From a virus: a DNA stretch of 64,000 nt. The DNA is taken from positions 1-64,000 of IMG/VR virus record IMGVR_UViG_3300045988_119718; one strand, 5' to 3'. Positions 2,828 to 54,071 of the stretch are shown here, in pieces; position 1 is the first letter of the stretch; each line of letters begins with the position of its first letter. Position numbers and translations under genes: made by a program. The notes beneath the pieces were generated by a model. The model searched no databases and was not told where the DNA came from. It was given only the letters and a program-made list of their open reading frames with translations.

Positions 2828-2949
2828 AATATTTCCTCCTTAAATATAATCTGCATATAGCAGGATAACTTGCTATCCATTATAATAGTATATAATTGAA
2901 ATTCTTGATAAAAAACAATATTATAAGTTTACAAGAAAGGAGAGTAATT

Positions 2950-8651: not shown

Positions 8652-8681
8652 AATTACTTCTCCTTTTACCAAAAATATACT

Positions 8682-22318: not shown

Positions 22319-23374
22319 TTACCTCACTTTGTAAACAACTTCATTAATAGACTCTTTACAAACACCAAAATCTTTTTCACCGTTACACATATTACGATGA
22401 AAGTAAACAGGAATAGATAATTTGTATAACCTCCTTAAATAAAAATGCAATGAGTTATCAGAAACATCATTGTCTGGATATACATTCACTATTATATTAT
22501 ATAATCCAAATTTTTCTATCAATGCTCGTAATACGCTATAATATCCTTTGCCATTACTACAGATATAGATATTATTATAGCTATCTTTATCACGAAGATT
22601 ATAGTAAATGCTTAGTATATCAAAACAACCTTCTGCTATATGTATATTTATAGGGTCTTTAGATAGTTTATCTATCTTTGTAGGAATACAATAATATCTA
22701 AGGTGGTTATTATCTTTTTCATTATATATAGAGTAATTAATGTATCTAGCATCTTTTAAGAAACCATCAGTATCATTAATATTTCTCATAGTAAGAAATC
22801 CATTATCTATAGATAAGAACCCAATGAAATGTTTATCTAATTCATCAGTAATACTTTGACTTCTATTAGATTTTAGATTATTCGCAGATAATAAATTTTT
22901 AATACTAAATACTATTTTAAGATTTTGAGCTTCCTGAATAGACAGTTTTAGACCTAATCTGGAATTAATATAATCTAATTTCTCTTTTAAAAAAGATACG
23001 TTATCAGTAGGTAAGACCCATGTTGTATTTCGTATTAATTTGTTATATCCTGAACGTAATCTAGATAAATTAACTTTAGCAGATATAGATTTAGACATCT
23101 CAGTTAAATCAATTATATCTTCTTTAGTTATGTTAGAATCACCTATTAACTCTCTTAATATAGCTGGGGTTAGTATTCCACTACGTTCACATTTAAAGCA
23201 ATGATATAATGGTATAGTATTCTCATCTCCGATATTAATATAGAAATGAGCAGAAGCTTTATTTTTACTATCGCCACAGAATCTACATCTTACTACATAT
23301 TCACTCCCAGATCTTTTTAGCTCTGGGAAATTACGTTTTAGTATTTTTAATACAGACATAGAATCATTATCCAT
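22319..23374 (-). CDS. DnaG-type DNA primase (CHC2 zinc finger plus Toprim)
   Basis: CRFCGDSKNKASAHFYIN..YHCFKCERSG resembles the DnaG zinc finger; acidic Toprim-like YPDNDVSDNS. Confidence 0.65.
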   Translation of the reverse strand: MDNDSMSVLKILKRNFPELKRSGSEYVVRCRFCGDSKNKASAHFYINIGDENTIPLYHCFKCERSGILTPAILRELIGDSNITKEDIIDLTEMSKSISAKVNLSRLRSGYNKLIRNTTWVLPTDNVSFLKEKLDYINSRLGLKLSIQEAQNLKIVFSIKNLLSANNLKSNRSQSITDELDKHFIGFLSIDNGFLTMRNINDTDGFLKDARYINYSIYNEKDNNHLRYYCIPTKIDKLSKDPINIHIAEGCFDILSIYYNLRDKDSYNNIYICSNGKGYYSVLRALIEKFGLYNIIVNVYPDNDVSDNSLHFYLRRLYKLSIPVYFHRNMCNGEKDFGVCKESINEVVYKVR

Positions 23375-23433: not shown

Positions 23434-25023
23434 TTAAATTAAAAGTATATACTGAAAATATTCTTCAGCAATTCTTTCAGGAACTACAGTAGTATTGATT
23501 ATTATTCCATTGTATTCTTTATTGTAGTAATCAATATTAATAAAAGTAGAAGATAATATTTGAGAAATAGTCTTAAAGATTACATCTTCAAGTTTCTTAT
23601 TATTATACTTCTCAGATACTTTAGTATACCCTTCAGAATCTTTGATTCTTTCCATAAGTCTTTTATTTACTGATTTTCTGCTAACTAGTTTATCAACTCT
23701 ACCACCAATGATATATGGTAAGAACGTTTGACCATTGCTAAGCAAACAATTCTTACACGCAATCATTAAAGTAATATAATCAATAATACCAATCATCTTT
23801 ACTGTTTGTAAATCTTTAAACCATTTCATGAAAGGGTATGTAACTAAGTTGAACTGGAAAGAATTCTTAATTGATTTACCTCCGTACTGAAGCATCCAAA
23901 TATAATAATTTATTTCAGCTTCACTAGGAGTACCGAACTCTTTTCTAATTCTATTCATAGTTTCTTCACAATTAACTTTAGTTTGAATAACAAGTGATTC
24001 ATCAATCTTATCCATATGTGCTTCAAACTTATCTGCTTGTGAATTACTATCCTCATCTCTATCAGAAGATGAAATAGAACTTAATTTATACCCATAATCA
24101 ATCAGTCTAACTTTATGGTCTAATTCACTTTCAATCATAATATAATTAAAATTGATTATATTCTTATCAAAAGTATACTTAGGAATAATCTGTAAAATAA
24201 TATTCTCAATAGTCTGAATAGTCTGTGTAGTATTATCTCTACTTCTAATATTTTGCATTTCCCAAAGCTTACTATTAGAAAGTACATTCTTATTTACGTT
24301 AGTAAGAACGGTTTCATATAATTTACTAACAATATCTATCCCATAATGCTGATTAACTACATTAAAGATTCTAGAGAATATAGATAAAAAGAACTTATTT
24401 ACATTTACAGTCTTTGGATATCTACGCTTCCAATAGAAATGAGAAATTAATGGAATAAGCATTAATTGAATAATACTAACTTCCATTAAAACTTTTACGT
24501 GTTCATCAGTATAAGCTAAACATGGGTTTTTAATATTCGTATAAGTTTGTGTAATATAATAATTATCATCAACCATTTTACGAATGTTATTTCTAAATTT
24601 AAAAACTTCTTCTTTAGGATTATCATATCTAATGATATATCTTTCCAAATCATTTACAAAGTTTTCTTCGGTATAACCATATTGGTCATCACTATCAATC
24701 ATTACTTTAAGATAACTATAAATACCAACTAATATCTGCTCAGTATCATAGAATTTTTCAAAATAATTTAGATAATGGATACAGTGATCTTTAAATCCAA
24801 GTTTAACTGTATCACCTTTTACTCTAGTGCTACTAGCATAACCTTTCTTAGGCTTCATTACAAAAAACGGAAATTGTTTATTAGCCATATCAGGACTAAT
24901 TAACTTATTACAAATAATTACTTCGCCAGCAGAAGAGAACACCATATCTTCTGGTGCTGGTTTCCATTCATCTACTCTAATAAATGGTTGTTTCACATTC
25001 CCAATCTCATTATTAGTGCTCAT
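23434..25023 (-). CDS. hypothetical protein (529 aa)
   Basis: ORF track; no NTPase motif. Confidence 0.45.
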   Translation of the reverse strand: MSTNNEIGNVKQPFIRVDEWKPAPEDMVFSSAGEVIICNKLISPDMANKQFPFFVMKPKKGYASSTRVKGDTVKLGFKDHCIHYLNYFEKFYDTEQILVGIYSYLKVMIDSDDQYGYTEENFVNDLERYIIRYDNPKEEVFKFRNNIRKMVDDNYYITQTYTNIKNPCLAYTDEHVKVLMEVSIIQLMLIPLISHFYWKRRYPKTVNVNKFFLSIFSRIFNVVNQHYGIDIVSKLYETVLTNVNKNVLSNSKLWEMQNIRSRDNTTQTIQTIENIILQIIPKYTFDKNIINFNYIMIESELDHKVRLIDYGYKLSSISSSDRDEDSNSQADKFEAHMDKIDESLVIQTKVNCEETMNRIRKEFGTPSEAEINYYIWMLQYGGKSIKNSFQFNLVTYPFMKWFKDLQTVKMIGIIDYITLMIACKNCLLSNGQTFLPYIIGGRVDKLVSRKSVNKRLMERIKDSEGYTKVSEKYNNKKLEDVIFKTISQILSSTFINIDYYNKEYNGIIINTTVVPERIAEEYFQYILLI

Positions 25024-25102: not shown

Positions 25103-25909
25103 TTAGCGTTTACGTGGTTTTATAACTTTTGATCTTCTTACTAGTTTTGAAGTAACAGTCTTAGGTTTTAATATACTAGCTTTAGCTGCATATGCAGCAG
25201 TAGGTGCAACTTTCATTCTATTGCTAGTATATCTAGACATATCTCTAGTTTCTGGTGGATGAAGTTTAGCTTCTTGCTCTTGTTGTTTTAGACGTTTTTG
25301 TATATCTCTAAGTCGTTGATTATCAATCAGCTTATCATCTGAATTCATTATAGATTTTAAGAATTTAGATTTATTTAATGGCTGTGCTTTTTCCCATTTA
25401 GCTGTATTAAATAAACGATTGAGTTTCATATAATAATATGCAAAGTAAATAGACTTTACATATCCCGTTTGCATATTAGGGTTTCTAATAACAGGCTTAT
25501 CAGTTAAACATTTTTTATTGAGCTTAGGTTTTAACCAATCTATAATCAAATCTTTTCTATTAAATGCATATGCCCATGTAAATACAAATGCAGGGTCGTT
25601 AGCATAAAATCTGGTAGTATAATTACTCATATCAGATACTAACTGTTCTGGGTTTTCTAACGTCAATTCTATTACTACATCATAATATAATTTATCAGTT
25701 TTTTCAGACGGTATCATTAAATGAGCATAGTATCTATTCTCAACTTTAGTATCTTTAAATAAAAAATAAGCCACTGTACCAGCTTCTCTAACTAATATAG
25801 CATCAAATCTTTTTTCATAATCTTGACGTATTAGTTTTCTCTGAGAATTAGTAGCTGTTCCTTTAACAATCTCAGGGTTATTGATGTACCGATTAAAAGA
25901 TATTTTCAT
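25103..25909 (-). CDS. hypothetical protein with a highly basic C-terminal tail
   Basis: C-terminus KPKTVTSKLVRRSKVIKPRKR. Confidence 0.45.
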   Translation of the reverse strand: MKISFNRYINNPEIVKGTATNSQRKLIRQDYEKRFDAILVREAGTVAYFLFKDTKVENRYYAHLMIPSEKTDKLYYDVVIELTLENPEQLVSDMSNYTTRFYANDPAFVFTWAYAFNRKDLIIDWLKPKLNKKCLTDKPVIRNPNMQTGYVKSIYFAYYYMKLNRLFNTAKWEKAQPLNKSKFLKSIMNSDDKLIDNQRLRDIQKRLKQQEQEAKLHPPETRDMSRYTSNRMKVAPTAAYAAKASILKPKTVTSKLVRRSKVIKPRKR

Positions 25910-26011
25910 AATTTACCCCTAATTATTTAAATAAAAAAAGAGTGCTATGGGTATTTATTACCCATAGCAGTTAATTAGGATTTATTATATAGTTATCTTT
26001 AGATTTAAATA

Positions 26012-27790
26012 TTACATTTCGTATGTATTATACGATGGATCTGGTAAAAGATACTGATTCGTAGCAAACATAAGCCCTACAATCTTAGAAATAGCATCAA
26101 GAATTACAATATCAGCTTTAATAGAAGTCAATACAGTTCCATCGAACTTATTATTTCTAATATTTAATGGGCAATTATTAATAATAGCATCTTTTACAAT
26201 AAGATCTTTTTTATCTTTAGTAATATCATTCTCAGCATAAATAAGTTCAAACAGTGTTACATATGCTTTAGCTACTGCTACAGTAATATCGTTTCCAATA
26301 AATGCAGACCAAACAATATTATCTCCAAGATCTTTATCAGCAAATGAAGCCCCATAGTTTTCTCTAATAATAAAATGAATAGCTCTCATTGCTTCAAAGT
26401 TAGCACCAAATCCAACCCCATCAGTAGCAGCAGATCTACAGTTCAGTACAGCATCTTCTACTAAATCCTTCTTAGCATCTCTATCAGCATAAGAAATACC
26501 ACCGATAAAGTAATCTACCATATTAGCTTTAAGAGATTGAATTCTTCTTTTAAGCATATAGATTTTCTTTACATCAATATTCTGTTCTTTATAAGAAGCC
26601 AATTCAGCTTCCAGAGTTTTAAGAAGATTAATCATTACAAAAGTTGGAGAACCATCTGCATTATACATAAGCTTTGGATTAATAATCTTAGTAGTCTTAG
26701 CATCAGCTACAACTAAATCTGCACTACCAGCAAAATTAGTAATTGTATCTACAGTAGGGGCTAATCCCTTCTCAATATCCTTCTTCTGATTTTCTGGATC
26801 AATATACTTCTTAATGGTCTTAGCACCAGACAATGCAGCTAAATCATACAGATTATCCAGTCTTGTCAATCCAGTATTTACAATCAGTAATTGTTTAAAT
26901 TCTGGCGGAACTTGAGAGAATGTATTAAATACAGCATTGATTTCAGACTGTGCATCAGCAGAAATAGATGGTGTAAAGATAGCAGTTGGAACCGGTGGTT
27001 TATTAGACTTAATTACACTATAGAAATTATTAGTTACAATAGTAGAGAGGAACTTAAGCATCTCTGGCGTATCAATAGGATCTTCAAAAATATAAATCTT
27101 TGGGTCTCTAATAGTACAAGAATTATTAGTGGAATCATTAATCAAATTAGGATTCAAATACCCAGAATCAAATGTAAGACCTTCATAAGATTTAACCATA
27201 CTTTCTTCATTATTAGTAACTCCTACATCGATATATACTTCCATACCAAAATCTTTATAAATCTTTTTAATATCACTAGCAATTTCTTCATTACCGTCGG
27301 TAGATGTATATGCAATATTATAGATATCATCCAGTGTAGCTTTATGACCATCTTCCTTGATAATAGAAGTAATCTTTTTTACCAATTTATTAAATTCGTT
27401 AAGAATAGTCTTTTCACTCTTACCAGTCTCATCTGCAAGATTCTTCAATTCTTTAAAAATAAGATAAGAAAGAATAACAGCAGATGTAGTACCATCGCCT
27501 ACAGTTTTAACGGTGTTCGTAGTAATGGCTTTTAAATCATCTACAATAGAATATTCAATAGGCTTATTGAATTTAATATTAGAAAGAATCTTATGACCAT
27601 CTTTAGTATATTCTGTAGTTCCTGCATCTTTAGCAGTAGTCATAGTTCTAATCTGAGTAGTAGAGCCATCTGGCCCATAAGAATTTGCAAGTGCGGATGC
27701 AATAGTTTCCATTGTTTCTAACTGAATAGCTCTAAGAGTCTTTTTGTTTACAATGTTAGAAATAGCTCTAGTCCAAGATTCATTTACCAT
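26012..27790 (-). CDS. GroEL/Cpn60-family chaperonin
   Basis: GPDGSTTQI..TKDGHKIL..TVGDGTTSAVIL matches the GroEL ATP-binding region (GPKGRNVV..TKDGVSVA..AGDGTTTATVL); size 592 aa. Confidence 0.75.
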   Translation of the reverse strand: MVNESWTRAISNIVNKKTLRAIQLETMETIASALANSYGPDGSTTQIRTMTTAKDAGTTEYTKDGHKILSNIKFNKPIEYSIVDDLKAITTNTVKTVGDGTTSAVILSYLIFKELKNLADETGKSEKTILNEFNKLVKKITSIIKEDGHKATLDDIYNIAYTSTDGNEEIASDIKKIYKDFGMEVYIDVGVTNNEESMVKSYEGLTFDSGYLNPNLINDSTNNSCTIRDPKIYIFEDPIDTPEMLKFLSTIVTNNFYSVIKSNKPPVPTAIFTPSISADAQSEINAVFNTFSQVPPEFKQLLIVNTGLTRLDNLYDLAALSGAKTIKKYIDPENQKKDIEKGLAPTVDTITNFAGSADLVVADAKTTKIINPKLMYNADGSPTFVMINLLKTLEAELASYKEQNIDVKKIYMLKRRIQSLKANMVDYFIGGISYADRDAKKDLVEDAVLNCRSAATDGVGFGANFEAMRAIHFIIRENYGASFADKDLGDNIVWSAFIGNDITVAVAKAYVTLFELIYAENDITKDKKDLIVKDAIINNCPLNIRNNKFDGTVLTSIKADIVILDAISKIVGLMFATNQYLLPDPSYNTYEM

Positions 27791-27791
27791 G

Positions 27792-28457
27792 TTATAGTCC
27801 TCCTATAGACGGAATTGTAAGATTTTTATATGGATCAATAACACACATAGTGTTACTGGTGCTAACAGCCATAGCTTCTGGTTTATAAATTAGAAAATCT
27901 TTCATCATATTGTATCTAGCATTAATAATAAATATTTTCTTATTAACTAGATTCTTATATTTGAATAGATTATCTACAGTTTTAGCATATAACGTATTAT
28001 AACTAGATAAATCATATTCATCAATCTTAGTAATTACTTTACCAGGAAAACTATGAATATATTCTTCTTCTAGTTTATCTTTACAGTTTACATGATTATT
28101 TATAACCCCAGATATGGTTGATCCTAAATTGCAGAATGATAGAATATCAGTTGGTAATGCTTTATCTAAGATTTCTTGTTTATGATATTCCATAATTTCA
28201 TTATAAATATCATCAATAGAATCTTCATATTCTTTCTTGATAATTATAGATAAAGGATTATAGCTCTCTCTAAATAATAATCTATTTTCTATCCCATTAA
28301 TAGTATTAGTATTCTTTAATAGACTAGTATCTATATATTTAGAGTTACCCATATTATCAATAATATACATTACTACTGATAAATCTACATCTACTAATGT
28401 CTCAAATTCAAACAAATTGTAAACTATCTGTACATCTGAAGATATACCTGTATTCAT
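27792..28457 (-). CDS. hypothetical protein
   Basis: ORF track, 221 aa. Confidence 0.45.
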   Translation of the reverse strand: MNTGISSDVQIVYNLFEFETLVDVDLSVVMYIIDNMGNSKYIDTSLLKNTNTINGIENRLLFRESYNPLSIIIKKEYEDSIDDIYNEIMEYHKQEILDKALPTDILSFCNLGSTISGVINNHVNCKDKLEEEYIHSFPGKVITKIDEYDLSSYNTLYAKTVDNLFKYKNLVNKKIFIINARYNMMKDFLIYKPEAMAVSTSNTMCVIDPYKNLTIPSIGGL

Positions 28458-28461
28458 TACC

Positions 28462-29133
28462 TCACCTACTTAACAATTCATTTAAATTATCCTGTACTGT
28501 TCTAAAATTATATTCAACAGCTTGCGAAGTTGCAAATGCATAAGCATTGGTAGTGGCTTTAACAAATTCATCTAACTGATTAATGATTAAATCTAATTCA
28601 GCATTTTTTAATTCTGGTGAATTAACTTTACTAAAATTAATAGCATTCTTTTCAGTGACTACATTATTGATATAATTGTAGTAATCTGTTTTAAGCTGAT
28701 AAGCTCCTTCATTATCTACAATAGTCTCTTCATTAAACTTTACAATTCTAATAGCAGCTTCATCAATAGATTTATTAAATGTAGTACCATTATTAATAGT
28801 AATAATAGATTTACCGGCATTAATACCATAACCATTATATTTTTCTCTATCTTCTTTAAATTTCTTTAAGATATTAGAGAAAAGAAAAGCTTTAGTCTGG
28901 TTTAAGAAAATACAAGCATTATTACCTAAGCTATTAAAAACAAATCTACCTTCACCTTCATTAAATGGAATAATATAAATTTTCAATAATCCATTCCACA
29001 TAGTAAATCCTAATCCAGATTTATAACTATCATCAGAATTATTAAACAAAGCAATACCATTTACATTTACTGTGTACTTGTTCTTATTAAACTGCATATT
29101 TCTGTTATTAGTACTCACTTCGGACAAACTCAT
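28462..29133 (-). CDS. hypothetical protein
   Basis: ORF track, 223 aa. Confidence 0.45.
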   Translation of the reverse strand: MSLSEVSTNNRNMQFNKNKYTVNVNGIALFNNSDDSYKSGLGFTMWNGLLKIYIIPFNEGEGRFVFNSLGNNACIFLNQTKAFLFSNILKKFKEDREKYNGYGINAGKSIITINNGTTFNKSIDEAAIRIVKFNEETIVDNEGAYQLKTDYYNYINNVVTEKNAINFSKVNSPELKNAELDLIINQLDEFVKATTNAYAFATSQAVEYNFRTVQDNLNELLSR

Positions 29134-29195: not shown

Positions 29196-29226
29196 TAAAA
29201 TCAATACCATGGAGAATATTCTCCAT
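29196..29226. terminator. intrinsic terminator hairpin
   Basis: AATACCATGGAGAATATTCTCCATGGTATT perfect palindrome. Confidence 0.6.
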
Positions 29227-29249
29227 GGTATTTTAGTATATGAATAACT

Positions 29250-30816: not shown

Positions 30817-30902
30817 AATTAATCCTCCTTTCTAGTAAATTAAAAGTAAGGGATAGAGGAAACCTCTATCCCTTAACACCTATAACTTATTTTTATTATT
30901 CA

Positions 30903-32954
30903 TTAAGGATTGGTAGTAGTTACAGGCGGGAGTTTCATATGACCATCTTCCGGATCAATAACTCCATTTACTTCAGATGCATACTGTTCAGTATTAGCAG
31001 TATCATCATTCATAGCACCCTTAATGAGATAGTCTTCTTCGTTCTTCATATAAACATTCTCTCTGAGACCAGAAGCATTGAGGATACGGATACGACCCTG
31101 AACAGGCTGATACTTGAGGAAGTACCAACGTTCAAAGCAGGTCATTGCCGGAACCTGATAATGTGCGGTATCACGAATTTCGTTGGATACGTACATCTGA
31201 TAATCAATTACCTTATAGGTAATACGCATTGAGTTTCTCGGAATGAGTAATACAATAAGGTTGTTGGAGTTTCTCATCTTCTGGGAAGAAATGAAGTTGT
31301 AAACTCTCTTTTCAGAAGTTACAACGGTTCTCTTGAAATCAAGTTCAACCGGTCCGATGTTGGACGGTGACTGATAGGTGTACTGCTGCGGAGCAATACG
31401 ACGAATAATATCTGGATGACCGAATACTGCTATAGTCATGTTTTCATCATTGAGAACCTGGAGCATACGGGTTACGTACTGGTCAAGGTTATCCATGAAC
31501 ATAACTTTACGCCATTCAACTGGGTTGTTGTTATAGTTAAGCGGCGGAGCAAAGTCGAATGCACCAGAAACCTTCTGGTTAGCTGGCATTGAGAGGAAAT
31601 CATCATCGAGATCTTTAAGAATCGAATCATCCTTCCAATGGAGAAGTGCAAGTCTCATCATAGACATGAGCTTGGTAACCTGATTTACATCATAGGTTGC
31701 CTGAAGATCCTTAACTTCTTCTGGAGTGATTTCGGTAGTAAGATGCGGAGCTTCTGGAATTTCATAGAAGTCCGTCTTAGCAGACCATTTGAATTTAACA
31801 GTCGGGAATACTGCGTTAGAAACATCAACTACAGCATGGATAACTGCACCTTGGAGGGAACCAGTTTCGCCATCGGCAATAGCTTTCCAACCACCTGCTG
31901 GCTGGATAGTAGAATCAAAGGATTCCGGCTTGAATGCTCTAAGGCTAATCTTGTTCTTTTCCATAGTACCCATTACATTGAGGCGAACAGTAGTCTTAGT
32001 TACTTTATTGGTAACAGCATTTCTTTCAACCGGAACTTCAAGCATGAAGCGTCTGTTGAAAATACGGTCATTGGAGCCATAGCCAGGGGTGAACTTACCT
32101 TCTACGTCGAAAATAAGGGTAGCATCTTTGACATCCTTGTCAGCTACCTTAATATGACCAGCAAGGTCAGTCTTAGCAGCTTCTACATCATCGATGTATT
32201 TAGAACCAGCAACAGCAAGACCCTTAATGAGAATCTTAGATACGAATGTCTTCATAGAAAGAGCAGTCAGCGGCATGTTCATTGCCGAAACCTGCTGTTC
32301 AGTGAAAGCATCATGAATAAGATCACCAGTAGCAGCACCACGACCACCGATTTCAGTGGTTACATAGTTAGAAGTTCCATCATCAACCCAAACAAAGTCA
32401 GCGGTCGGGATGGATTCATCTACTGCGTCTTTAATCTTATTCTGTTCATAGAACATATCGTATTCATTGCCCTTGGTATCAACAAGAGTACGAGTTTCCA
32501 TGGTAAGGGTGAACTTCGGTGAACGAGCTACATCCTTCGGCATAACCTGATCAAATACAGCATTCATAAGAATGTTTTTGTGCATCGGAAGAGTCATACC
32601 TACAACTGGGTTATATACACCAAGCGGAGAGGATTCGTTCATGATATGGTTGGTATCGTTATCAAAGATAGCGTCCATGTTGCTGAGATGGTTTTCGAGT
32701 ACAGCAGTGTTCTTGTACTGCGGATCAGAAGCATCATAAGATCCTTCTCTAAACGCAGCCTTAAGTTCTTCTCTATACATGCTATCTTTAAGAACAGCAG
32801 AAGGATCTCTTACCATATCGTAAGCACCTTGAGATTCCTGTTTAATAGCATTGATAGTATCAACATAGTCCTGAGCTACACTATGCATTTCATTAGTTGC
32901 ATAGCTGCTAAGATCTACTTTGGTATCTTCATTAATTGGTTTAATTGCAGCCAT
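30903..32954 (-). CDS. GC-rich (~45% GC), highly expressed-type gene (683 aa); candidate major virion protein (major capsid) or nucleus-shell (chimallin-like) protein
   Basis: strong SD AAGGAGGAAAGCTAATA-ATG; GC ~45-48% against ~25% in flanking genes; frequent CCG/GGC/CGT codons. Confidence 0.35.
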   Translation of the reverse strand: MAAIKPINEDTKVDLSSYATNEMHSVAQDYVDTINAIKQESQGAYDMVRDPSAVLKDSMYREELKAAFREGSYDASDPQYKNTAVLENHLSNMDAIFDNDTNHIMNESSPLGVYNPVVGMTLPMHKNILMNAVFDQVMPKDVARSPKFTLTMETRTLVDTKGNEYDMFYEQNKIKDAVDESIPTADFVWVDDGTSNYVTTEIGGRGAATGDLIHDAFTEQQVSAMNMPLTALSMKTFVSKILIKGLAVAGSKYIDDVEAAKTDLAGHIKVADKDVKDATLIFDVEGKFTPGYGSNDRIFNRRFMLEVPVERNAVTNKVTKTTVRLNVMGTMEKNKISLRAFKPESFDSTIQPAGGWKAIADGETGSLQGAVIHAVVDVSNAVFPTVKFKWSAKTDFYEIPEAPHLTTEITPEEVKDLQATYDVNQVTKLMSMMRLALLHWKDDSILKDLDDDFLSMPANQKVSGAFDFAPPLNYNNNPVEWRKVMFMDNLDQYVTRMLQVLNDENMTIAVFGHPDIIRRIAPQQYTYQSPSNIGPVELDFKRTVVTSEKRVYNFISSQKMRNSNNLIVLLIPRNSMRITYKVIDYQMYVSNEIRDTAHYQVPAMTCFERWYFLKYQPVQGRIRILNASGLRENVYMKNEEDYLIKGAMNDDTANTEQYASEVNGVIDPEDGHMKLPPVTTTNP

Positions 32955-33056: not shown

Positions 33057-34589
33057 TTATTCTCTCTTATTTTTATTATTGCTATTATTCTCTAATTGTT
33101 TCTTGTTGCTTATCTTTTCTAATATCTTGATAAGCATTGTGTATATAGTAATGAACCGTTCAAGAATTATTTGATTCTCCACAAAACTTCTTGTATTAAA
33201 GGAATCTGTTAAAGAATCCTTTATCATCTCTCTTAGATCGGAAAGAGAATCATTTACATAGTTAAGTGTATCAACTATATTAGAATCTTTATTTACTACT
33301 GATAATCTCTCTAGTATACCAGTAATATCATTGAAAAGATCAATAAATTGTTGTTTTTGATTATTGGTTTTTATTCTTAATTGATCTTGTGTCAAATTAG
33401 AAAAGACATCTTGTTGTAATCCCTGAATTTCAGAATTAGCTTGAGAATCTCTAGAACCACCATCGTTCATTGTAGAATCATCAGTTGAATTTGCATCGTC
33501 TTGACCATCTGTTCCATCTTCTGAGCCATCCCCTGCATCATTATCTGTATCAGTATAGTCTTCACTAGCATCATCACCATCAGAACTACTGGTGTCGGCT
33601 GGTTGGTTTGGATTTCCTGTAGCTGCATCATTTTGTTCAGTATCATCATTAGGAGTATCCGACCTTACAGTATTGTTATTATCATCTATATTTGAATCTT
33701 GAGAATTATCAGTATCAGTATAATCTGCGGAATTATCATCATCTGATGAGGTATCTTGAACGTTTGTATCAGCCGCTGTATTACCATTACCATCATCATA
33801 ATCTTGCGTATAATCAGTACCTGTATCATCTGGTGTAGAAGTATCTACAGCATTTGCTGGTTCTTCAGTATCATTAGTATAATCCTCAGTATCATCTGAA
33901 GTAGAAGTATCTGCTACATCACTATTATCTGTATCCGCAGTATAATCTTCTTCTGACCCAGAATCATCACCGTTATCAGCAGTATCTACGACCTCTTCTG
34001 GTTCTTCAGTATCGCCAGTATAATCATCTTCTGTATTATCATCTGATGAAGTATCCTGTACTTCTGTATCGGTTTCTTCAGGTTCATCATCAGTAGGAGT
34101 ATCATCTGTATCATTAGTATAGTCTTCTTCTGTATCCGTATCATCATCAGATTCAGAAGCATCACTATCTACTTCTTCTGGCTCATTATCTTCTTCAGGT
34201 TCATCTTCATATTCAGTATAATCATCAGTATCATTATCGTCAGCAGTATCTACTACTTCAGTTGGTTCTTCATCTTTCTTTTTATCAGCCTCTAAGATTA
34301 CATTCATATTATTAGTAAAATCGCCATAGTAAGATTCATTTAAGGTTTTATATACTTCAGAATCTTCACTTACTTCAACATTAAATTTCTTAGCAGCTTT
34401 CATTATATTTCTAGCTAATTCTTTTTTCTTATTTTTATCACAATGATTAAAATAAGCCATAGCAGAACGTACATGGTTAGCATCGTTTAATGGATATTTC
34501 TTTTCAGATGGTAATCCGTAAATAGATGCTGGCAATTCTTTTCTATCTTTAGTAGATAATTTTTCTTCATTATAAATATTAATCATCAT
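33057..34589 (-). CDS. polyacidic tandem-repeat protein (510 aa) with about 7 copies of (E/D)DYT-DT(D/E) embedded in D/E/T/S-rich low complexity
   Basis: central ~330 aa such as DDTDTEEDYTNDTDDTPTDDEPEETDTEVQDTSSDDNTEDDYTGDTEEPEE..; N- and C-terminal ordered segments. Confidence 0.6.
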   Translation of the reverse strand: MMINIYNEEKLSTKDRKELPASIYGLPSEKKYPLNDANHVRSAMAYFNHCDKNKKKELARNIMKAAKKFNVEVSEDSEVYKTLNESYYGDFTNNMNVILEADKKKDEEPTEVVDTADDNDTDDYTEYEDEPEEDNEPEEVDSDASESDDDTDTEEDYTNDTDDTPTDDEPEETDTEVQDTSSDDNTEDDYTGDTEEPEEVVDTADNGDDSGSEEDYTADTDNSDVADTSTSDDTEDYTNDTEEPANAVDTSTPDDTGTDYTQDYDDGNGNTAADTNVQDTSSDDDNSADYTDTDNSQDSNIDDNNNTVRSDTPNDDTEQNDAATGNPNQPADTSSSDGDDASEDYTDTDNDAGDGSEDGTDGQDDANSTDDSTMNDGGSRDSQANSEIQGLQQDVFSNLTQDQLRIKTNNQKQQFIDLFNDITGILERLSVVNKDSNIVDTLNYVNDSLSDLREMIKDSLTDSFNTRSFVENQIILERFITIYTMLIKILEKISNKKQLENNSNNKNKRE

Positions 34590-36953: not shown

Positions 36954-39221
36954 TTAGAAGTCTTTACCAAAGCATACCTTTTCAAGAGTCTTTACATATA
37001 CCTCAGTAAAAGTGCGTTTCATAACACTTGATGTACCAGTAGGTGCATAATCAGAATAGGGATCACCAAAATTTTCAAGATAATATTTAAGGTTAAGTAC
37101 GTATGGTACAGTATTGCTTGCAATAATGTATTTTGCTAAAAGCTTAGCTGCTTTTCTCTGTCTATTATAGTTGTAGTCATTAAGGGATCTATTAGACCCA
37201 TCTAAAACAAAATAGCAATGCTCGTTATTGGATTCGCTAATATTGCATTTACCAATAAGATTTCCACCCTTAACGATTTCTTTATAAATCTTATAAGAGC
37301 GTCTCTTATGCTGATGAGCAATTAATACATTATTGTATGCATGTTCCATAAACCAAAGGAAAGCAGGGATAAAGTCTCTTTGATAAATAAATTCCGTAAG
37401 AATATAATACATCTTATTGTATTTATTACTATTTGGTCTTTGTTTATTAATAGTTTCCTGTACCTTTTCTTCATTAGTATGTTTATGATCTTCTGCTTTA
37501 GTTTCTTTTGAAACTTCTTCTTCTTTTGGTGAAGATCCTTCAGTATTTTTACCTACAATCTCATCCAGTTTATTAGATAACTCTTTTACAGCTTTGTTGA
37601 AGTCATTCATTGCTTCTTTATTATCTTTTTCTTTTTCTCCATCAAATTCCTGTGTAGCTTTATCATACTTAGGTGCATCATTTTGCATAGATGATGGAAT
37701 ATAATTAATGCTAATTTTCTCCGTAGAAAAACCAGGTGCTCTATAAATATTGATAGGTGCATCAATACCATCAATCGGTTCAATGCCAGTAGTTTTAAAC
37801 ATAATATTTCTCCTTTTCAAAGAATCAGACTCATCATCTACTACGGTATACTGTGAAGAAGATAATCCGACCCAATGCTCATTAAAGCTAGTAGGCGGAT
37901 TTTTAATCTTAACATCCTTAAGTTTAGGACAATTCTTAAACATATCGGTACACCATTTGCAAGATTTCATATCAATGATACCTTTAATAGTAGTAAGATT
38001 GTAGCAGTTTTTAAACATATAAGACATATTTTTTACTTTAGAAGTATCAAAGTTAGATAAATCCAATGTAGTAAGACTAGTACAATCACCGAACATACAC
38101 TCCATATCATCTACATTAGACGTATTAAAACTAGATAAATCTAATGACGTAAGACCATGGCAATTAAAGAACATAAAGCTCATATTGGTTACTTTAGATG
38201 TATTAAAGCCAGATAAATCTAATGTAGTAAGACTACGGCAACTATTAAACATACTACTCATATTAGTTACTTTAGACGTATTAAAGTAAGTAAATAAATC
38301 TAATGAAGTAAGACCACTACAATGATGGAACATATACTCCATATTTGTTATTTTATCATCGATTATAACATTAGCTTGACCTGAAAATTCCAGTATATCA
38401 ATTACATGAGATTCATCAGCCCAAATCTTACTGTACCATGGAGCACTACCTGTAGATAAAAATGCCAATTTGTGATCATACTCATCATCTACTATGGTAT
38501 ACTGAGATTTAGAAAGCCTACTATACTTTTCAAATTTGTCAGGTGGATTCTTAATCTTAACACCTTTAAGCTTAGTACAATTCATAAACATATCACTATA
38601 CCGTTTACATGACTTCATATCGATTACACCTTTAATAGTAGTAAGGTTAGAGCAACCATCAAATATGCTAAGCATATTTTCTACATTAGAAGTATCAAAG
38701 TTAGTTACATCCAATGAAGTAAGACTAGTACACTTACTAAACATAAGACCCATATCTCTTACATTAGAAGTATTGAAGTTGGATAAATCTAATGAAGTAA
38801 GTTTAGAACAGCCACTGAGCATAAAGCTCATATCAGTTACATTAGAAGTATCAAAACTAGATAAATCTAATGAAGTAAGAGAAGAACACTGATGAAACAT
38901 ATTAAACATATCTTTTACTTTAGAAGTATCAAAGTTAGATAAGTCTAATGATGCAAGATTGTAGCAATAGGCAAACATATTCCTCATATTAGTTACTTCG
39001 GATGTATTAAAATTAGACAAATCCAATGAAGTAATACAATGGCATTCATTAAACATACTGCCCATATTAGTTACACCTTTGCATGTAACTGTAGCTTGAC
39101 CAGATATAGATTCATCCATGTTAATAAATTTATCCTCATCAACCCACGGCATCCAATAATAATTACTATCAGTAAACCATGGAGCATTACCTTTGGCTAT
39201 ATATACCTGCTCTTTAGACAT
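36954..39221 (-). CDS. BspA-type LRR protein with two complete family modules (N-module + LRRs + C-module, twice) fused to a ~290-aa non-LRR C-terminal domain
   Basis: MSKEQVYIAKGNAPWF..ESISGQATVT..LRRs..IKGVIDMKSC..VKIKNPP..SQYTIV, then again ..GSAPWY..FSGQANVI..LRRs..IKGIIDMKSC..VKIKNPP..SQYTVV; SD AAAGGAGAAGTATT-ATG. Confidence 0.8.
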   Translation of the reverse strand: MSKEQVYIAKGNAPWFTDSNYYWMPWVDEDKFINMDESISGQATVTCKGVTNMGSMFNECHCITSLDLSNFNTSEVTNMRNMFAYCYNLASLDLSNFDTSKVKDMFNMFHQCSSLTSLDLSSFDTSNVTDMSFMLSGCSKLTSLDLSNFNTSNVRDMGLMFSKCTSLTSLDVTNFDTSNVENMLSIFDGCSNLTTIKGVIDMKSCKRYSDMFMNCTKLKGVKIKNPPDKFEKYSRLSKSQYTIVDDEYDHKLAFLSTGSAPWYSKIWADESHVIDILEFSGQANVIIDDKITNMEYMFHHCSGLTSLDLFTYFNTSKVTNMSSMFNSCRSLTTLDLSGFNTSKVTNMSFMFFNCHGLTSLDLSSFNTSNVDDMECMFGDCTSLTTLDLSNFDTSKVKNMSYMFKNCYNLTTIKGIIDMKSCKWCTDMFKNCPKLKDVKIKNPPTSFNEHWVGLSSSQYTVVDDESDSLKRRNIMFKTTGIEPIDGIDAPINIYRAPGFSTEKISINYIPSSMQNDAPKYDKATQEFDGEKEKDNKEAMNDFNKAVKELSNKLDEIVGKNTEGSSPKEEEVSKETKAEDHKHTNEEKVQETINKQRPNSNKYNKMYYILTEFIYQRDFIPAFLWFMEHAYNNVLIAHQHKRRSYKIYKEIVKGGNLIGKCNISESNNEHCYFVLDGSNRSLNDYNYNRQRKAAKLLAKYIIASNTVPYVLNLKYYLENFGDPYSDYAPTGTSSVMKRTFTEVYVKTLEKVCFGKDF

Positions 39222-39537: not shown

Positions 39538-39783
39538 TTAAATACCAAGACTTCCTTTAGTAAATTTAATATTACGGACATCCCCTTCTATAAGAACTTT
39601 AGAATCAGGATATCTAATATTATCTCTACTTACTAAAATAGCAGTATATACTTTAGGAGATCCACGTACTATTACAGTACCGAATCTAGGTTCTACGGTT
39701 CCTCTTGATTTCTCAATCTCAATGATTTTATCATGTTGGGTTTGAGAGAAGATGAAAACTCTATAATATATATTATTCGTCAT
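39538..39783 (-). CDS. small hypothetical protein (81 aa) whose reading frame overlaps the 3' end of the RpoB N-terminal gene
   Basis: ORF track; 11-nt overlap with the upstream gene. Confidence 0.35.
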   Translation of the reverse strand: MTNNIYYRVFIFSQTQHDKIIEIEKSRGTVEPRFGTVIVRGSPKVYTAILVSRDNIRYPDSKVLIEGDVRNIKFTKGSLGI

Positions 39784-51953: not shown

Positions 51954-52919
51954 TTACAATGCTTGAATAGATTTATTCATAACACTAGAGATCTTGTATG
52001 CCCAATTAGGATCTGTAGCGTAATTACCATTCTTCATAGATTGCAATGTAGTATAACCATTCTTGTAGAAGTTATTACTAATCCATACGGCTCCGTTAAT
52101 AATACCCGCATCAATATCATTGCCCATTACATAACCAGCATTGGGGTTAGCATCAACACAATTAATACCAAAATAATTATGTCGGTTTCTTGCCATATAG
52201 CTTGTTCCCCAGCCAGATTCAATAGCTGCATGTGCTAAAATATAAATAGGATTTAGCCCAGATGCTTTAGATGCTTTGATAAACGCATCTCCTTTATTCT
52301 TAAACTGAGATTGAATACCCATATGCATAATCCAATAATCAATAATCTTATTCATATCTTTAGATGTGATTTTCATATTGCTATTTGATAAATCAGAGTT
52401 TACGTCATATCCAGTACTCTTAATATATGAAATATTGGTAGCATGCTCCTCCAATGTCTTTTTCATAGTTTCATCTTGTTGTTTTTGTCTTTCTTCAATA
52501 CGCTGCTGTTGCTTTTGAATTTCTACTAAAATATTATATACTTTTTGATTAGCAGTATTATCTTCAGACAACTGATCTTCAATATTAGTTACTCTAGTAT
52601 CAATAATAGATACTTTACCCCAAAGTAAAAAGTTAATGATAATAAAAGCTACAACTAAAAATACTGTAATTAACCGTTCCAGAATAAGTTTCTTCTTGGA
52701 TACATTTGTTAAGTTTTGCATAACTATTCTCTCCTTAAAGATAATAAATATTAAAGTAAATAAACTATATACGATAAAAAGAACTAGAGAGCAATCTCTA
52801 GTTCTTGTAAATAGGGAATTATAAATCTCTTGTTGGAGATTATTTGTTATCGTTCTTTTCTTCTTTTTTAGATTTACGATAAGCTTCCTGATCTTTCTCA
52901 TTAAGCTCATCCACACCAA
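51954..52919 (-). CDS. membrane-anchored peptidoglycan hydrolase (glucosaminidase/FlgJ-LytD-type domain) with an N-terminal TM helix and a coiled-coil linker
   Basis: N-terminal LVLFIVYSLFTLIFIIF and ITVFLVVAFIIINFLLW; C-terminal NPIYILAHAAIESGWGTS..NYFGI.. glucosaminidase signature. Confidence 0.65.
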   Translation of the reverse strand: MVWMSLMRKIRKLIVNLKKKKRTITNNLQQEIYNSLFTRTRDCSLVLFIVYSLFTLIFIIFKERIVMQNLTNVSKKKLILERLITVFLVVAFIIINFLLWGKVSIIDTRVTNIEDQLSEDNTANQKVYNILVEIQKQQQRIEERQKQQDETMKKTLEEHATNISYIKSTGYDVNSDLSNSNMKITSKDMNKIIDYWIMHMGIQSQFKNKGDAFIKASKASGLNPIYILAHAAIESGWGTSYMARNRHNYFGINCVDANPNAGYVMGNDIDAGIINGAVWISNNFYKNGYTTLQSMKNGNYATDPNWAYKISSVMNKSIQAL

Positions 52920-54000: not shown

Positions 54001-54040
54001 GTATATAACATCTAGCTTATATAAGCTAGATGTTATATAC
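54001..54040. promoter_or_regulatory. perfect 40-bp palindrome in a divergent promoter region; candidate operator
   Basis: GTATATAACATCTAGCTTATATAAGCTAGATGTTATATAC, ~30 bp upstream of the start at 54072; an additional inverted repeat AGTGAAGACA(28 nt)TGTCTTCACT lies at 53928-53975. Confidence 0.5.
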
Positions 54041-54071
54041 CGTTGATAACTTTTATGTAAGAGGTGATAAA

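What the first reader, a model, noticed from the sequence alone, without database searches (positions are those of the whole stretch)
26012..27790. Phage-encoded GroEL-family chaperonin with no adjacent GroES
Clear Cpn60 motifs (GDGTTSAVIL and others). Phage chaperonins are rare, with phage EL gp146 the classic example, and can work without a co-chaperonin. Its neighbours are unknown genes and the GC-rich major protein, which suggests a dedicated folding role for a large structural or shell protein.
Basis: partly seen in the sequence, partly recalled or inferred. Interest (0 to 1): 0.55.

Follow-up and report, generated by a model that had tools for sequence, protein, structure and literature searches.

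The report
Jumbo-phage GroEL chaperonin without GroES
This gene is a real but very divergent GroEL-type protein-folding machine, carried by an uncultured AR9-like giant phage with no GroES partner in sight; that kind of phage chaperonin is already known, so the gene is a solid but fairly ordinary new member.

Summary
Window 26012-27790 (minus strand) is a 592-aa ORF with its own AGGAGG ribosome-binding site, and it belongs to the Cpn60/GroEL family by Pfam, PHROG, PDB sequence search, profile alignment and an AlphaFold model. The catalytic residues (GroEL D52, D87, D398) are invariant in 121 relatives.

No GroES-like gene was found in the 64-kb window, nor within 10 kb of the gene in 76 related viral contigs.

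The closest studied relative is Bacillus phage AR9 gp228, a single-ring chaperonin that needs no co-chaperonin. Identity is only 26%, but the downstream gene order is shared (g227-like, RNA-polymerase gp226-like, primase). The exact protein is already in public databases, labelled GroEL.

The suggested role in folding the capsid or a 'shell' protein is not supported by gene context:
- The 683-aa GC-rich neighbour is the major capsid protein, but two terminator-like hairpins separate it from GroEL.
- It lies within 10 kb of GroEL in only 44 of 76 relatives.
- No capsid protein is annotated within 12 kb of GroEL in AR9 or a Staphylococcus jumbo phage.

The tightest conserved neighbour is an upstream HAD-fold protein, probably translationally coupled to GroEL (75 of 76 loci). 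It is not GroES-like.

Verdict: new member of a known kind; modest interest.

The parts
26012..27790 (-). Phage chaperonin gene, 592 aa, Cpn60/GroEL family. By alignment to GroEL, the equatorial domain is about residues 13-145 and 457-582, the intermediate domain about 146-202 and 425-456, and the apical domain about 203-424.
   Evidence: ORF; Pfam and PHROG hits; PDB sequence hits; hhalign to GroEL; AF2 model and Foldseek; residue mapping.
26519..27184 (-). Apical-domain coding part (residues about 203-424). The hydrophobic faces of helices H (242-261) and I (278-293) are kept. The segment after helix H varies in length across the clade (18-41 residues).
   Evidence: Secondary structure of the model; alignment and conservation counts.
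27799..27804 (-). AGGAGG ribosome-binding site of the chaperonin gene. It lies inside the last codons of the upstream gene (stop TAA at 27794-27792, one spacer base, ATG at 27790), an arrangement that suggests translational coupling.
   Evidence: Read directly from the sequence.
25943..25969 (-). Terminator-like hairpin (11 bp stem followed by a T run) just downstream of the chaperonin stop codon.
   Evidence: Pattern scan and folding. Comparable hairpins follow GroEL in L001, L008, L009, AR9 and Madawaska (annotated as a terminator there), but not in L007.
27792..28457 (-). 221-aa HAD-fold protein directly upstream of GroEL, probably translationally coupled to it. It is not GroES-like.
   Evidence: AF2 model with pLDDT 80.8. 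The 50 best PDB Foldseek matches are almost all HAD-fold hydrolases or proteins built on that fold. BFVD matches include jumbo-phage proteins and 5'-nucleotidases. Found immediately upstream of GroEL in 75 of 76 related loci.
28462..29133 (-). 223-aa protein of unknown function, the first gene of the putative 223 / HAD-like / GroEL transcription unit.
   Evidence: No Pfam, PHROG or PDB relative. Conserved upstream in 74 of 76 loci. Bounded upstream by the hairpin at 29203-29232.
29203..29232 (-). Terminator-like hairpin (13 bp stem) upstream of the 223-aa gene. It separates the GroEL unit from the capsid-side genes.
30847..30875 (-). Terminator-like hairpin (13 bp stem) directly after the major capsid gene.
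   Evidence: An equivalent hairpin is present in L001, L007 and L008.
30903..32954 (-). A candidate client only by speculation.
   Evidence: phrog_20655 major head protein, E 4e-20; GC content.
25103..25909 (-). 268-aa protein homologous to AR9 g227 and Madawaska gp179; the conserved downstream neighbour of phage GroEL.
   Evidence: phrog_20045, E 9e-41; BLAST and jackhmmer hits to AR9 and Madawaska.
23434..25023 (-). 529-aa homologue of AR9 gp226 / Madawaska gp180, annotated there as a non-virion RNA-polymerase (specificity) subunit.
   Evidence: jackhmmer E 1e-84.
22319..23374 (-). DNA primase. It completes the gene block shared with AR9 (GroEL, g227, gp226, primase).
   Evidence: phrog_19847, E 2e-39; 28% identity to AR9 g225.
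51954..52919 (-). Glucosaminidase-domain protein, a probable endolysin. It is a candidate client only by analogy with the in-vitro substrates of the EL, OBP and AR9 chaperonins.
   Evidence: Pfam PF01832, 67 bits; literature in PMC9598537.

Best explanation
The gene encodes the chaperonin of an uncultured, low-GC jumbo phage of about 250 kb that is distantly related to Bacillus phage AR9/PBS1 and the Staphylococcus jumbo phages. It is the positional and sequence counterpart of AR9 gp228.

Shown here: it has the three-domain GroEL fold, an intact ATP-hydrolysis core and a hydrophobic apical groove. It is under purifying selection and is conserved across this phage lineage. No GroES-like gene lies near it.

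Inferred by homology to AR9 gp228, OBP gp246 and EL gp146: the protein assembles into heptameric rings (single ring, or a double ring that can dissociate). It binds non-native phage proteins on the open apical ring and uses ATP binding and hydrolysis to release them. It needs no lid, so it works without closed-cage encapsulation. It is probably made late in infection, when virion and lysis proteins are produced in bulk.

Its natural clients are unknown. The endolysin, capsid protein and tail sheath are candidates but nothing more.
For: Family and fold.

Catalytic core: T62-K63-D64-G65 (GroEL T50-G53), D99-G100-T101-T102 (GroEL D87-T90) and D446 (GroEL D398) are invariant in 121 of 121 clade members and conserved in AR9 and Madawaska, apart from a conservative T-to-S at the T89 position in the two phages.

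Apical groove: hydrophobic positions on helix H (245, 247, 248, 251, 252) and helix I (280, 284, 287, 288, 291) are conserved as hydrophobic.

Selection: dN/dS is 0.20 against an 85%-identical relative.

Closest relatives: AR9/PBS1 and Staphylococcus jumbo-phage GroELs match at 26-28% identity over 96-98% of the length, E about 1e-41. Bacterial GroEL gives 7e-16.

Shared gene order with AR9 and Madawaska: GroEL, g227-like, gp226-like, primase.

No GroES:
- None in the window.
- None within 10 kb in 76 related IMG/VR loci.
- A tblastn of GroES over 50,697 phage records returned 121 records. None of the 60 listed rows, nor the ten commonest organism groups, is an AR9/PBS1-type or Staphylococcus jumbo phage.

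Literature:
- AR9 gp228 is a single-ring heptamer that refolds endolysin with ATP and no co-chaperonin (PMC9598537).
- EL gp146 does not bind GroES, has no built-in lid and does not encapsulate (PMC7185714).
- AR9 g228 is a late gene (PMC5312081).

Lineage conservation: 206 IMG/VR stretches encode relatives, on contigs of up to 333 kb.
Against: - Nothing about oligomeric state, ATPase activity, independence from a co-chaperonin or clients was measured for this protein. All of that is transferred across 26% identity.
- Only 64 kb of a genome of about 250-270 kb was available, so a GroES-like or unrelated cofactor elsewhere in the genome cannot be excluded.
- Some nucleotide-pocket residues differ from GroEL: G415 to A, G416 to N, D495 to T, K34 to D.
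- The allosteric salt-bridge residues of GroEL (R197/E386, D83/K327) and its inter-ring contact residues are not conserved. The reaction cycle could therefore differ from every studied case.
- Late expression is inferred from AR9 only. No promoter could be assigned here.
Confidence: 0.7

Rival explanations
1. Dedicated capsid-folding factor. On this reading the chaperonin exists mainly to fold the 683-aa major capsid protein, or another large structural protein, as host GroEL with gp31 does for T4 gp23.
For: - The capsid gene lies 3.1 kb upstream on the same strand and stays within 10 kb in 44 of 76 related loci.
- AR9 GroEL is expressed late, together with virion proteins.
- GroEL peptides were found in a purified Staphylococcus phage DC4 virion preparation (PMC10638138).
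- A 77-kDa capsid protein would be too large for a closed GroEL-GroES cage, which would fit a lidless chaperonin. This last point rests on general knowledge of cage capacity, not on a test here.
Against: - Two terminator-like hairpins separate the capsid gene from the GroEL unit.
- 32 of 76 related loci have no capsid gene within 10 kb, although the HAD-like/GroEL pair persists in them.
- No capsid protein is annotated within 12 kb of GroEL in AR9 or Madawaska, where it follows baseplate and unknown genes.
- The only demonstrated in-vitro substrates of phage chaperonins are endolysins.
Confidence: 0.15
2. Conventional group I mechanism using the host's GroES. The phage ring would be capped by host Cpn10 and would encapsulate clients.
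For: - The model superposes best on GroES-bound GroEL/Hsp60 subunits (4v4o, 9es0; TM 0.69/0.77).
- The hydrophobic H/I groove, which is also the GroES docking site in GroEL, is retained.
- A study of marine viral GroELs considered use of the host co-chaperonin possible for GroEL-only viruses (PMC5649160).
Against: [quoted passage not shown]
- The AR9 and OBP chaperonins work without any co-chaperonin.
- The conformation AlphaFold chooses says nothing about partners.
- The allosteric salt-bridge residues that couple GroES binding to ATP in GroEL are not conserved.
- The host is unknown.
Confidence: 0.08
3. Chaperonin with an unrecognised phage-encoded partner. The partner could be the probably translationally coupled HAD-fold protein and/or the 223-aa protein, or a cryptic GroES analogue elsewhere in the genome.
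For: - The HAD-like gene ends 1 nt before the GroEL ATG and carries the GroEL ribosome-binding site.
- It is immediately upstream in 75 of 76 loci and the 223-aa gene is upstream in 74 of 76, a tighter linkage than any other neighbour.
- The canonical HAD DxD pair is broken in about 10-15% of unique sequences, while other residues (F18, N67, P68, C125, K173, N183, Y210) are nearly invariant. This hints at a role that is not purely catalytic.
- The authors of the EL study state that an unrelated cofactor cannot be ruled out.
- Only a quarter of the genome could be searched.
Against: - The HAD fold is an enzyme fold, with no resemblance to GroES or to a lid.
- Similar HAD-like proteins occur in other jumbo phages (Noxifer, Simmy50, RP12). 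Whether those phages encode a chaperonin was not checked.
- AR9 and Madawaska lack both genes next to GroEL, yet the AR9 chaperonin is active alone.
- Gene coupling in densely packed phage genomes often reflects only co-expression.
Confidence: 0.07

Closest known systems
Bacillus phage AR9 gp228 (and PBS1 and Staphylococcus jumbo-phage GroELs)
   Same: - Phage-encoded Cpn60 with full-length homology (26-28% identity, E about 1e-41).
- Same downstream gene block: g227-like, gp226-like RNA-polymerase subunit, primase.
- Shared pocket substitutions G416 to N and loss of D495.
- No GGM tail and no GroES nearby.
- gp228 is a single-ring heptamer, active without a co-chaperonin and expressed late.
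   Different: - Only about a quarter of residues are identical, and this protein is about 30 aa longer, with apical and equatorial insertions.
- G415 is changed to A only in this clade.
- The upstream genes differ: AR9 has baseplate wedge, g231, g230 and g229. Here they are capsid protein, 385-aa, 131-aa, 223-aa and HAD-like genes.
- The host phage has a true dUTPase and anaerobic NrdD/NrdG, so it probably does not share AR9's uracil-DNA biology (inference).
- Oligomeric state and activity are untested.
Pseudomonas phage EL gp146 and phage OBP gp246
   Same: - GroEL-like phage chaperonins with a conserved nucleotide pocket and many insertions and deletions elsewhere.
- They act without GroES and have no built-in lid.
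- Detectable sequence similarity: 6tmt 7e-13, 6hdd 2e-7.
   Different: - They are much more distant than AR9 gp228, and in phmmer E-value no closer to this protein than bacterial GroELs and Hsp60s are.
- They come from phiKZ-related Pseudomonas phages.
- EL switches between double and single rings. Nothing comparable can be read from this sequence.
Bacterial GroEL-GroES (group I chaperonin)
   Same: - Same three-domain fold (Foldseek E 3e-29).
- Same catalytic residues D52, D87 and D398, and the GDGTT motif.
- Hydrophobic helix H/I groove.
   Different: - 22-24% identity.
- No groES gene upstream or anywhere in the window.
- No C-terminal GGM repeats; the protein ends in a conserved ...N-T-Y-x-x.
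- The R197/E386 and D83/K327 salt-bridge residues and the R452/E461 inter-ring residues are not conserved.
T4 gp31 / RB49 CocO with host GroEL (capsid protein folding)
   Different: There the phage supplies the small GroES-like lid and uses host GroEL. Here the phage supplies the large subunit, and no lid gene was found.
Group II chaperonins (thermosome / CCT)
   Same: They are independent of a separate co-chaperonin. There is weak sequence similarity in the equatorial domain (thermosome 3e-5, CCT-beta 4e-5).
   Different: - Sequence and fold are clearly closer to group I (1e-19; all top structural matches).
- Helix H is only modestly extended (242-261) and carries no lid-sized helical protrusion in the model.

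Membership tests
Cpn60/GroEL family (Pfam PF00118; group I chaperonin fold) | Significant match to the family profile, above the curated threshold | tested here: met
   PF00118 scores 67.4 bits against a cut-off of 34.3. PHROG 5725 'chaperonin groEL' gives E 1.4e-56 over the full length. hhalign to GroEL gives probability 99%.
Cpn60/GroEL family (Pfam PF00118; group I chaperonin fold) | Three-domain subunit (equatorial, intermediate, apical) with GroEL topology | tested here: met
   The AF2 model has pLDDT 83.9. All 50 best PDB matches are group I chaperonins aligned over about 590 columns, with TM up to 0.70/0.78.
Cpn60/GroEL family (Pfam PF00118; group I chaperonin fold) | ATP-binding GDGTT motif and the catalytic aspartates (GroEL D52, D87, D398) | tested here: met
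   D64, D99 and D446 plus TKDG and GDGTT are invariant in 121 of 121 clade members. Peripheral pocket residues differ (G415A, G416N, D495T).
Cpn60/GroEL family (Pfam PF00118; group I chaperonin fold) | Hydrophobic substrate- and GroES-binding groove on apical helices H and I | tested here: inconclusive
   Hydrophobic faces are conserved on both helices. However, MAFFT and hhalign disagree by 2-3 residues on the register of helix I, so a one-to-one mapping of L259/V263/V264 is not secure.
Canonical bacterial GroEL-GroES system | A cognate Cpn10/GroES gene, normally directly upstream in an operon | tested here: not met
   The upstream gene is a HAD-fold protein. There is no Cpn10 hit anywhere in the window or within 10 kb in 76 related loci. 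The rest of the genome could not be read.
Canonical bacterial GroEL-GroES system | C-terminal Gly-Gly-Met repeat tail | tested here: not met
   The protein ends ...LLPDPSYNTYEM. N588 and Y590 are invariant in the clade.
Canonical bacterial GroEL-GroES system | Back-to-back double heptameric ring with the staggered R452/E461/S463/V464 and K105/A109/E434 contacts | tested here: inconclusive
   The contact residues are not conserved, but ring number cannot be derived from sequence. No multimer prediction was available.
Phage co-chaperonin-independent chaperonins (AR9 gp228, OBP gp246, EL gp146) | Encoded in a (jumbo) phage genome | tested here: met
   The window carries capsid, sheath, tail tube, primase, split RNA-polymerase, UvsX and DNA-polymerase genes. 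The same protein occurs on contigs of up to 252,690 bp, and relatives on contigs of up to 333 kb.
Phage co-chaperonin-independent chaperonins (AR9 gp228, OBP gp246, EL gp146) | Closer to a characterised member than to cellular GroEL, with shared gene order | tested here: met
   AR9 gp228 gives E 2e-42 against 7e-16 for Salmonella GroEL. The GroEL, g227, gp226, primase block is shared.
Phage co-chaperonin-independent chaperonins (AR9 gp228, OBP gp246, EL gp146) | ATP-dependent chaperone activity without any co-chaperonin | not testable with these tools
   This needs purified protein. It is known for AR9, OBP and EL from PMC9598537 and PMC7185714.
Phage co-chaperonin-independent chaperonins (AR9 gp228, OBP gp246, EL gp146) | Single-ring heptamer, or a double ring that dissociates on ATP binding | not testable with these tools
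   No multimer modelling or experiment was possible.
Group II chaperonins (thermosome/CCT) | Built-in lid: a long helical protrusion of the apical domain, and closer similarity to thermosome/CCT than to GroEL | tested here: not met
   Thermosome and CCT hits are at 3e-5 or weaker, against 1e-19 for GroEL. In the model helix H is only 20 residues long, with no protrusion. All top structural matches are group I.

The most novel reading that the evidence does not exclude
In this phage lineage the chaperonin may not act alone. It may form a fixed module with the HAD-fold protein probably translationally coupled to it, and perhaps with the 223-aa protein as well. The catalytic DxD pair of the HAD-fold protein is dispensable in part of the family. 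Such a protein could be an obligate client, or a new non-GroES cofactor or regulator of a lidless chaperonin. That would be the 'unrelated cofactor' that the EL gp146 study could not exclude.
Probability: 0.08. Interest if true: 0.7.

Novelty: new member of a known kind. Interest (0 to 1): 0.3.

Why it matters
Phage-encoded GroEL homologues that work without GroES have been proposed as a possible third group of chaperonins, and only three have been studied (EL, OBP, AR9). This gene belongs to a large lineage of giant phages known only from metagenome assemblies: 206 IMG/VR stretches encode relatives, and the 90%-identity cluster has 355 members. The chaperonin is conserved across that lineage.

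The lineage offers many natural sequence variants, at 40-98% identity, for asking which features make a GroEL ring independent of a lid and what its real clients are.

For this window the practical result is corrective. The gene is what it looks like, but its position does not point to the capsid protein. The only strictly conserved linkage is to a HAD-fold protein and a 223-aa protein of unknown function.

Tried and rejected
1. Cryptic GroES in the upstream gene. GroES normally sits directly upstream of groEL, so I modelled the 221-aa upstream protein. It has a HAD (Rossmann-like core plus cap) fold, not a GroES barrel. Rejected.

2. AR9 g229/g230 and Madawaska gp176/gp177, the small genes upstream of GroEL in those phages, as GroES-like. 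tblastn with GroES found nothing there.

3. A weak GroES phmmer hit at 2896-3690 (10 bits, E 0.009 in a 213-sequence set). It has no Pfam support. Treated as chance.

4. Loss of helix I hydrophobic residues as an explanation for GroES independence. The MAFFT mapping suggested it, but hhalign shifts the register, and the helix keeps a conserved hydrophobic face. Claim withdrawn.

5. Promoters. Sigma-70-like sites are not enriched (88 found, 98 expected). The AR9 late motif AACA-N6-TA/G is not matched exactly upstream of the 223-aa gene. No promoter was assigned.

6. Near-identical DNA in the INPHARED phage collection: none.

7. Profile searches of PDB for the 223-aa, HAD-like and g227-like families: nothing significant. 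Pfam on 16 HAD-like members: only noise.

8. The 385-aa protein (with an HEVAR sequence) as a paralogue of the HExxH protein at 54030-55166: no similarity.

9. The 683-aa protein as a phage-nucleus shell protein. It matches a major-head-protein PHROG and no other family.

10. A whole-genome GroES search was not possible. Only the window and 10-kb flanks of relatives can be read.
Full report
**Observation.** The window has an uninterrupted 592-codon ORF at 26012-27790 on the minus strand. An AGGAGG ribosome-binding site lies 8 nt upstream of its ATG, inside the last codons of the preceding gene. The motif VGDGTTSAVIL is at residues 97-107. Every family test is positive:
- Pfam Cpn60_TCP1 scores 67.4 bits against a gathering score of 34.3.
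- PHROG 5725 'chaperonin groEL' gives E 1.4e-56 over residues 11-582.
- phmmer against PDB returns GroEL and mitochondrial Hsp60 chains down to 1e-19, phage EL gp146 (6tmt) at 7e-13, phage OBP (6hdd) at 2e-7, and thermosome/CCT only at 1e-5 or weaker.
- A profile of 121 relatives aligns to Salmonella GroEL residues 19-522 with 99% probability.
- An AlphaFold2 model built on that alignment has mean pLDDT 83.9 and pTM 0.73. Its 50 best PDB matches are all group I chaperonins aligned over the whole chain (E 3e-29, TM 0.69/0.77).

**What genome this is.** The window is 29.5% GC, is transcribed almost entirely from the minus strand and has no tRNA genes. It encodes:
- a major head protein (683 aa), tail sheath (723 aa), tail tube and a virion structural protein;
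- a DNA primase, a family-B-type DNA polymerase, an NAD-dependent ligase, a UvsX-like recombinase, a gyrase/topoisomerase-IV A subunit and an SMC/Rad50-like ATPase;
- pieces of a split multisubunit RNA polymerase;
- a glucosaminidase-type lysin, a dUTPase and anaerobic ribonucleotide reductase components.

There is no near-identical DNA in the INPHARED collection. The exact protein is nevertheless public. JGI/IMG and ENA hold it on contigs of up to 252,690 bp under the name 'chaperonin GroEL (HSP60 family)'. Its 90%-identity cluster has 355 members, including GenBank DAK04308.1 'MAG TPA: Heat shock protein 60 [Caudoviricetes sp.]'. A scan of IMG/VR found 206 stretches encoding relatives at 40-93% identity, on contigs of up to 333 kb. 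The gene is therefore a conserved component of a large lineage of jumbo phages known only from metagenome assemblies.

**Closest relatives and gene order.** By tblastn the best phage matches are the Staphylococcus jumbo phages (AH12, MarsHill, Madawaska, S6 and others; 28% identity) and Bacillus phages AR9/PBS1 (26%), each over 96-98% of the length. Local BLAST gives E 2e-42 to AR9 gp228 and 1e-41 to Madawaska, against 7e-16 to Salmonella GroEL.

The downstream genes are shared with AR9 and Madawaska:
- a 268-aa protein homologous to AR9 g227;
- a 529-aa protein homologous to AR9 gp226 / Madawaska gp180, the non-virion RNA-polymerase subunit;
- a primase homologous to AR9 g225.

The gene is thus the positional counterpart of AR9 g228. 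The upstream side differs. AR9 has baseplate wedge, g231, g230 and g229. This clade has capsid protein, 385-aa, (131-aa), 223-aa and 221-aa genes.

**No GroES.**
- I scanned the other 64 predicted proteins of the window against Pfam, concatenated into chimeric sequences. No Cpn10 hit appeared.
- PHROG scans of the neighbours and about 20 small proteins of 75-193 aa found no GroES or gp31-type family.
- phmmer with Salmonella GroES against all 213 ORFs of 40 aa or more gave only noise.
- In 76 related IMG/VR loci with 10 kb on each side, an iterated search found no GroES.
- A tblastn of GroES over all 50,697 phage records found 121 records. None of the listed rows or commonest organism groups is an AR9/PBS1-type or Staphylococcus jumbo phage.

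The limit is that only about a quarter of this genome could be read.

**Functional anatomy.** Mapping GroEL's key residues through the alignment gives this picture:
- The hydrolysis core is invariant in all 121 clade members, and conserved in AR9 and Madawaska apart from a T-to-S change at the T89 position. It comprises T50-K51-D52-G53 (here T62-G65), D87-G88-T89-T90 (D99-T102) and D398 (D446).
- Peripheral pocket residues differ: K34 to D, G415 to A, G416 to N and D495 to T. The G416N change and the loss of D495 are shared with AR9.
- GroEL's allosteric salt-bridge residues (R197/E386, D83/K327) and its inter-ring contact residues (R452, E461, S463, K105, A109, E434) are not conserved.
- The Gly-Gly-Met tail is replaced by a short tail with invariant N588 and Y590.
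- Apical helices H (242-261) and I (278-293) keep conserved hydrophobic faces, so a client-binding groove is likely.

An earlier impression that helix I had lost its hydrophobic residues came from an alignment-register difference between MAFFT and hhalign, and I withdrew it.

Two segments vary strongly in length within the clade: 18-41 residues after helix H, and 7-45 residues in the equatorial domain near the ring-ring face. dN/dS against an 85%-identical relative is 0.20, compared with 0.11 for the capsid protein, so the gene is under purifying selection.

**Transcription context.** Terminator-like hairpins on the coding strand lie in four places:
- right after the capsid gene (30875-30847);
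- between the 131-aa and 223-aa genes (29232-29203);
- right after GroEL (25969-25943);
- after the gp226-like gene (23430-23401).

The likely unit is therefore 223-aa, 221-aa, GroEL. Gaps within it are 4 nt and 1 nt, and the GroEL ribosome-binding site sits inside the 221-aa gene. Hairpins at equivalent positions occur in relatives and after GroEL in AR9 and Madawaska, though one relative (L007) lacks the one after GroEL. Sigma-70-type promoter matches are not enriched, as expected for a phage with its own polymerases. The AR9 late-promoter motif is not matched exactly. No promoter was assigned.

**The capsid hypothesis.** The 683-aa protein is the major capsid protein (phrog_20655, E 4e-20) and is indeed GC-rich (41.5% against 29.5%). 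It is separated from GroEL by four genes and two hairpins. Among 76 related loci the neighbours are conserved as follows:

| Neighbour of GroEL | Loci (of 76) |
|---|---|
| HAD-like gene, immediately upstream | 75 |
| 223-aa gene | 74 |
| g227-like gene | 60 |
| gp226-like gene | 58 |
| 385-aa-like gene | 57 |
| primase | 55 |
| capsid gene within 10 kb | 44 |
| GroES | 0 |

The one locus without the HAD-like gene is truncated upstream of GroEL. No capsid protein is annotated within 12 kb of GroEL in AR9 or Madawaska. Gene position therefore gives no specific support for a capsid-dedicated role.

Some indirect points remain in its favour. AR9 g228 is a late gene, like the virion genes (PMC5312081). 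GroEL peptides were detected in a purified Staphylococcus phage DC4 preparation, although the authors caution about co-purification (PMC10638138). The only substrates shown in vitro for phage chaperonins are endolysins (PMC9598537, PMC7185714). This window has a glucosaminidase-type lysin at 51954-52919.

**The upstream partner.** Because groES normally precedes groEL, I modelled the 221-aa upstream protein (pLDDT 80.8, pTM 0.81).
- It has a HAD-type fold. Almost all of the 50 best PDB matches are HAD-fold proteins, including 5'(3')-deoxyribonucleotidases, though with modest scores (best E 9.5e-4, TM 0.4-0.5).
- BFVD matches include three uncultured Myoviridae proteins at TM 0.8, proteins of several jumbo phages, and annotated 5'-nucleotidases. 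It is not a co-chaperonin by fold.
- The canonical DxD pair (D23, D25) is present in this protein but is replaced in about 10-15% of 66 unique family members. F18, N67, P68, C125, K173, N183 and Y210 are nearly invariant. The meaning of this is unknown.
- Neither this family nor the 223-aa family is found next to GroEL in AR9 or Madawaska. Neither has sequence relatives in PDB or Pfam.

**Most likely mechanism.** The protein is an ATP-driven, GroEL-fold ring chaperone of the AR9 gp228 type. It most likely forms heptameric rings that capture non-native phage proteins on an open hydrophobic apical ring and release them on ATP binding and hydrolysis. It would need no lid and would not use closed-cage encapsulation. 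It is probably produced late.
- Shown here: fold, intact catalytic core, hydrophobic groove, purifying selection, conservation across the lineage, and absence of GroES nearby.
- Inferred by homology: ring assembly, ring number, independence from a co-chaperonin, timing, and client class.

I put about 0.97 on 'phage Cpn60-family chaperonin orthologous to AR9 gp228' and about 0.7 on the full mechanistic statement. The rivals are a capsid-dedicated role, use of host GroES, and an unrecognised phage partner. None is excluded and each is individually less likely.

**Novelty and score.** Phage GroELs that work without GroES are an established, if small, class (EL, OBP, AR9). Viral GroELs lacking GroES have been noted in viromes (PMC5649160). 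This very protein is already labelled GroEL in public databases. It is a new, uncharacterised and divergent member of a known kind.

The one thing a specialist might not expect is the near-invariant, probably translationally coupled pairing with a HAD-fold protein and a 223-aa unknown. It deserves a test, but for now it is only an association. Interest 0.3.

Noticed in passing
window 27792-28457 (-): A 221-aa HAD-fold protein ends 1 nt before the GroEL start codon and is found immediately upstream of GroEL in 75 of 76 related viral loci. Its canonical DxD pair is lost in about 10-15% of family members, while other residues (F18, N67, P68, C125, K173, N183, Y210) are nearly invariant.
   Followed up: yes
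window 28462-29133 (-): A 223-aa protein with no detectable relatives in Pfam, PHROGs or PDB is conserved two genes upstream of GroEL in 74 of 76 related loci. It probably heads the same transcription unit.
   Followed up: partly
window 50124-51305 (-): A 393-aa tubulin/FtsZ-like protein with a GGTGSG signature (phrog_4733 'tubulin PhuZ' E 7e-6; Pfam Tubulin 23.9 bits, below the cut-off). PhuZ is best known from nucleus-forming phiKZ-like phages. No chimallin-like gene was recognised in the window.
   Followed up: partly
window 6892-7398, 7566-8672, 8682-9257 and 36954-39221 (all -): A family of paralogous DUF285 / BspA-like leucine-rich-repeat proteins, 45-65% identical to one another. Each module ends in the same C-terminal segment (...IKGVIDMKSC...VKIKNPP...SQYTVV). 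They look like exchangeable receptor-binding modules near the tail genes.
   Followed up: partly
window 45465-47870, 53066-53833, 39773-41563 and 23434-25023 (all -): Split multisubunit RNA-polymerase genes: an Rpb2 domain-6 piece, a PHROG RNA-polymerase beta piece, a PHROG 'polymerase' piece and an AR9 gp226-like subunit. This places the phage with the AR9/phiKZ-type phages that carry their own RNA polymerases.
   Followed up: partly
window 62624-63175, 63187-63705 and 63729-63947 (all -): A dUTPase with the GGFGSTG motif, an NrdG-type radical-SAM activase and the C-terminal end of an anaerobic NrdD. These suggest an anaerobic host and, unlike AR9/PBS1, probably thymine rather than uracil DNA. 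This is inference only.
   Followed up: no
window 61133-61393, 61733-62008 and 62190-62465 (all -): Three tandem paralogous small genes (86-91 aa, 38-45% identical to one another) sharing an 'RICD' motif. Function unknown.
   Followed up: partly
window 33057-34589 (-): A 510-aa protein directly upstream of the capsid gene has an N-terminal DUF6582 match and a long acidic, low-complexity D/T/N/S-rich middle region. It may be a scaffold-like or internal head protein.
   Followed up: no
window 54030-55166 (+): One of the few plus-strand genes: a 378-aa protein with an HEIGH (HExxH) zinc-metalloprotease-like motif (phrog_2767, unknown function). It is not related to the 385-aa protein next to the capsid gene.
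   Followed up: partly
window 30903-32954 (-): The major capsid gene has 41.5% GC in a 29.5% GC window. That is a strong compositional outlier, presumably reflecting codon usage of a very highly expressed gene.
   Followed up: partly
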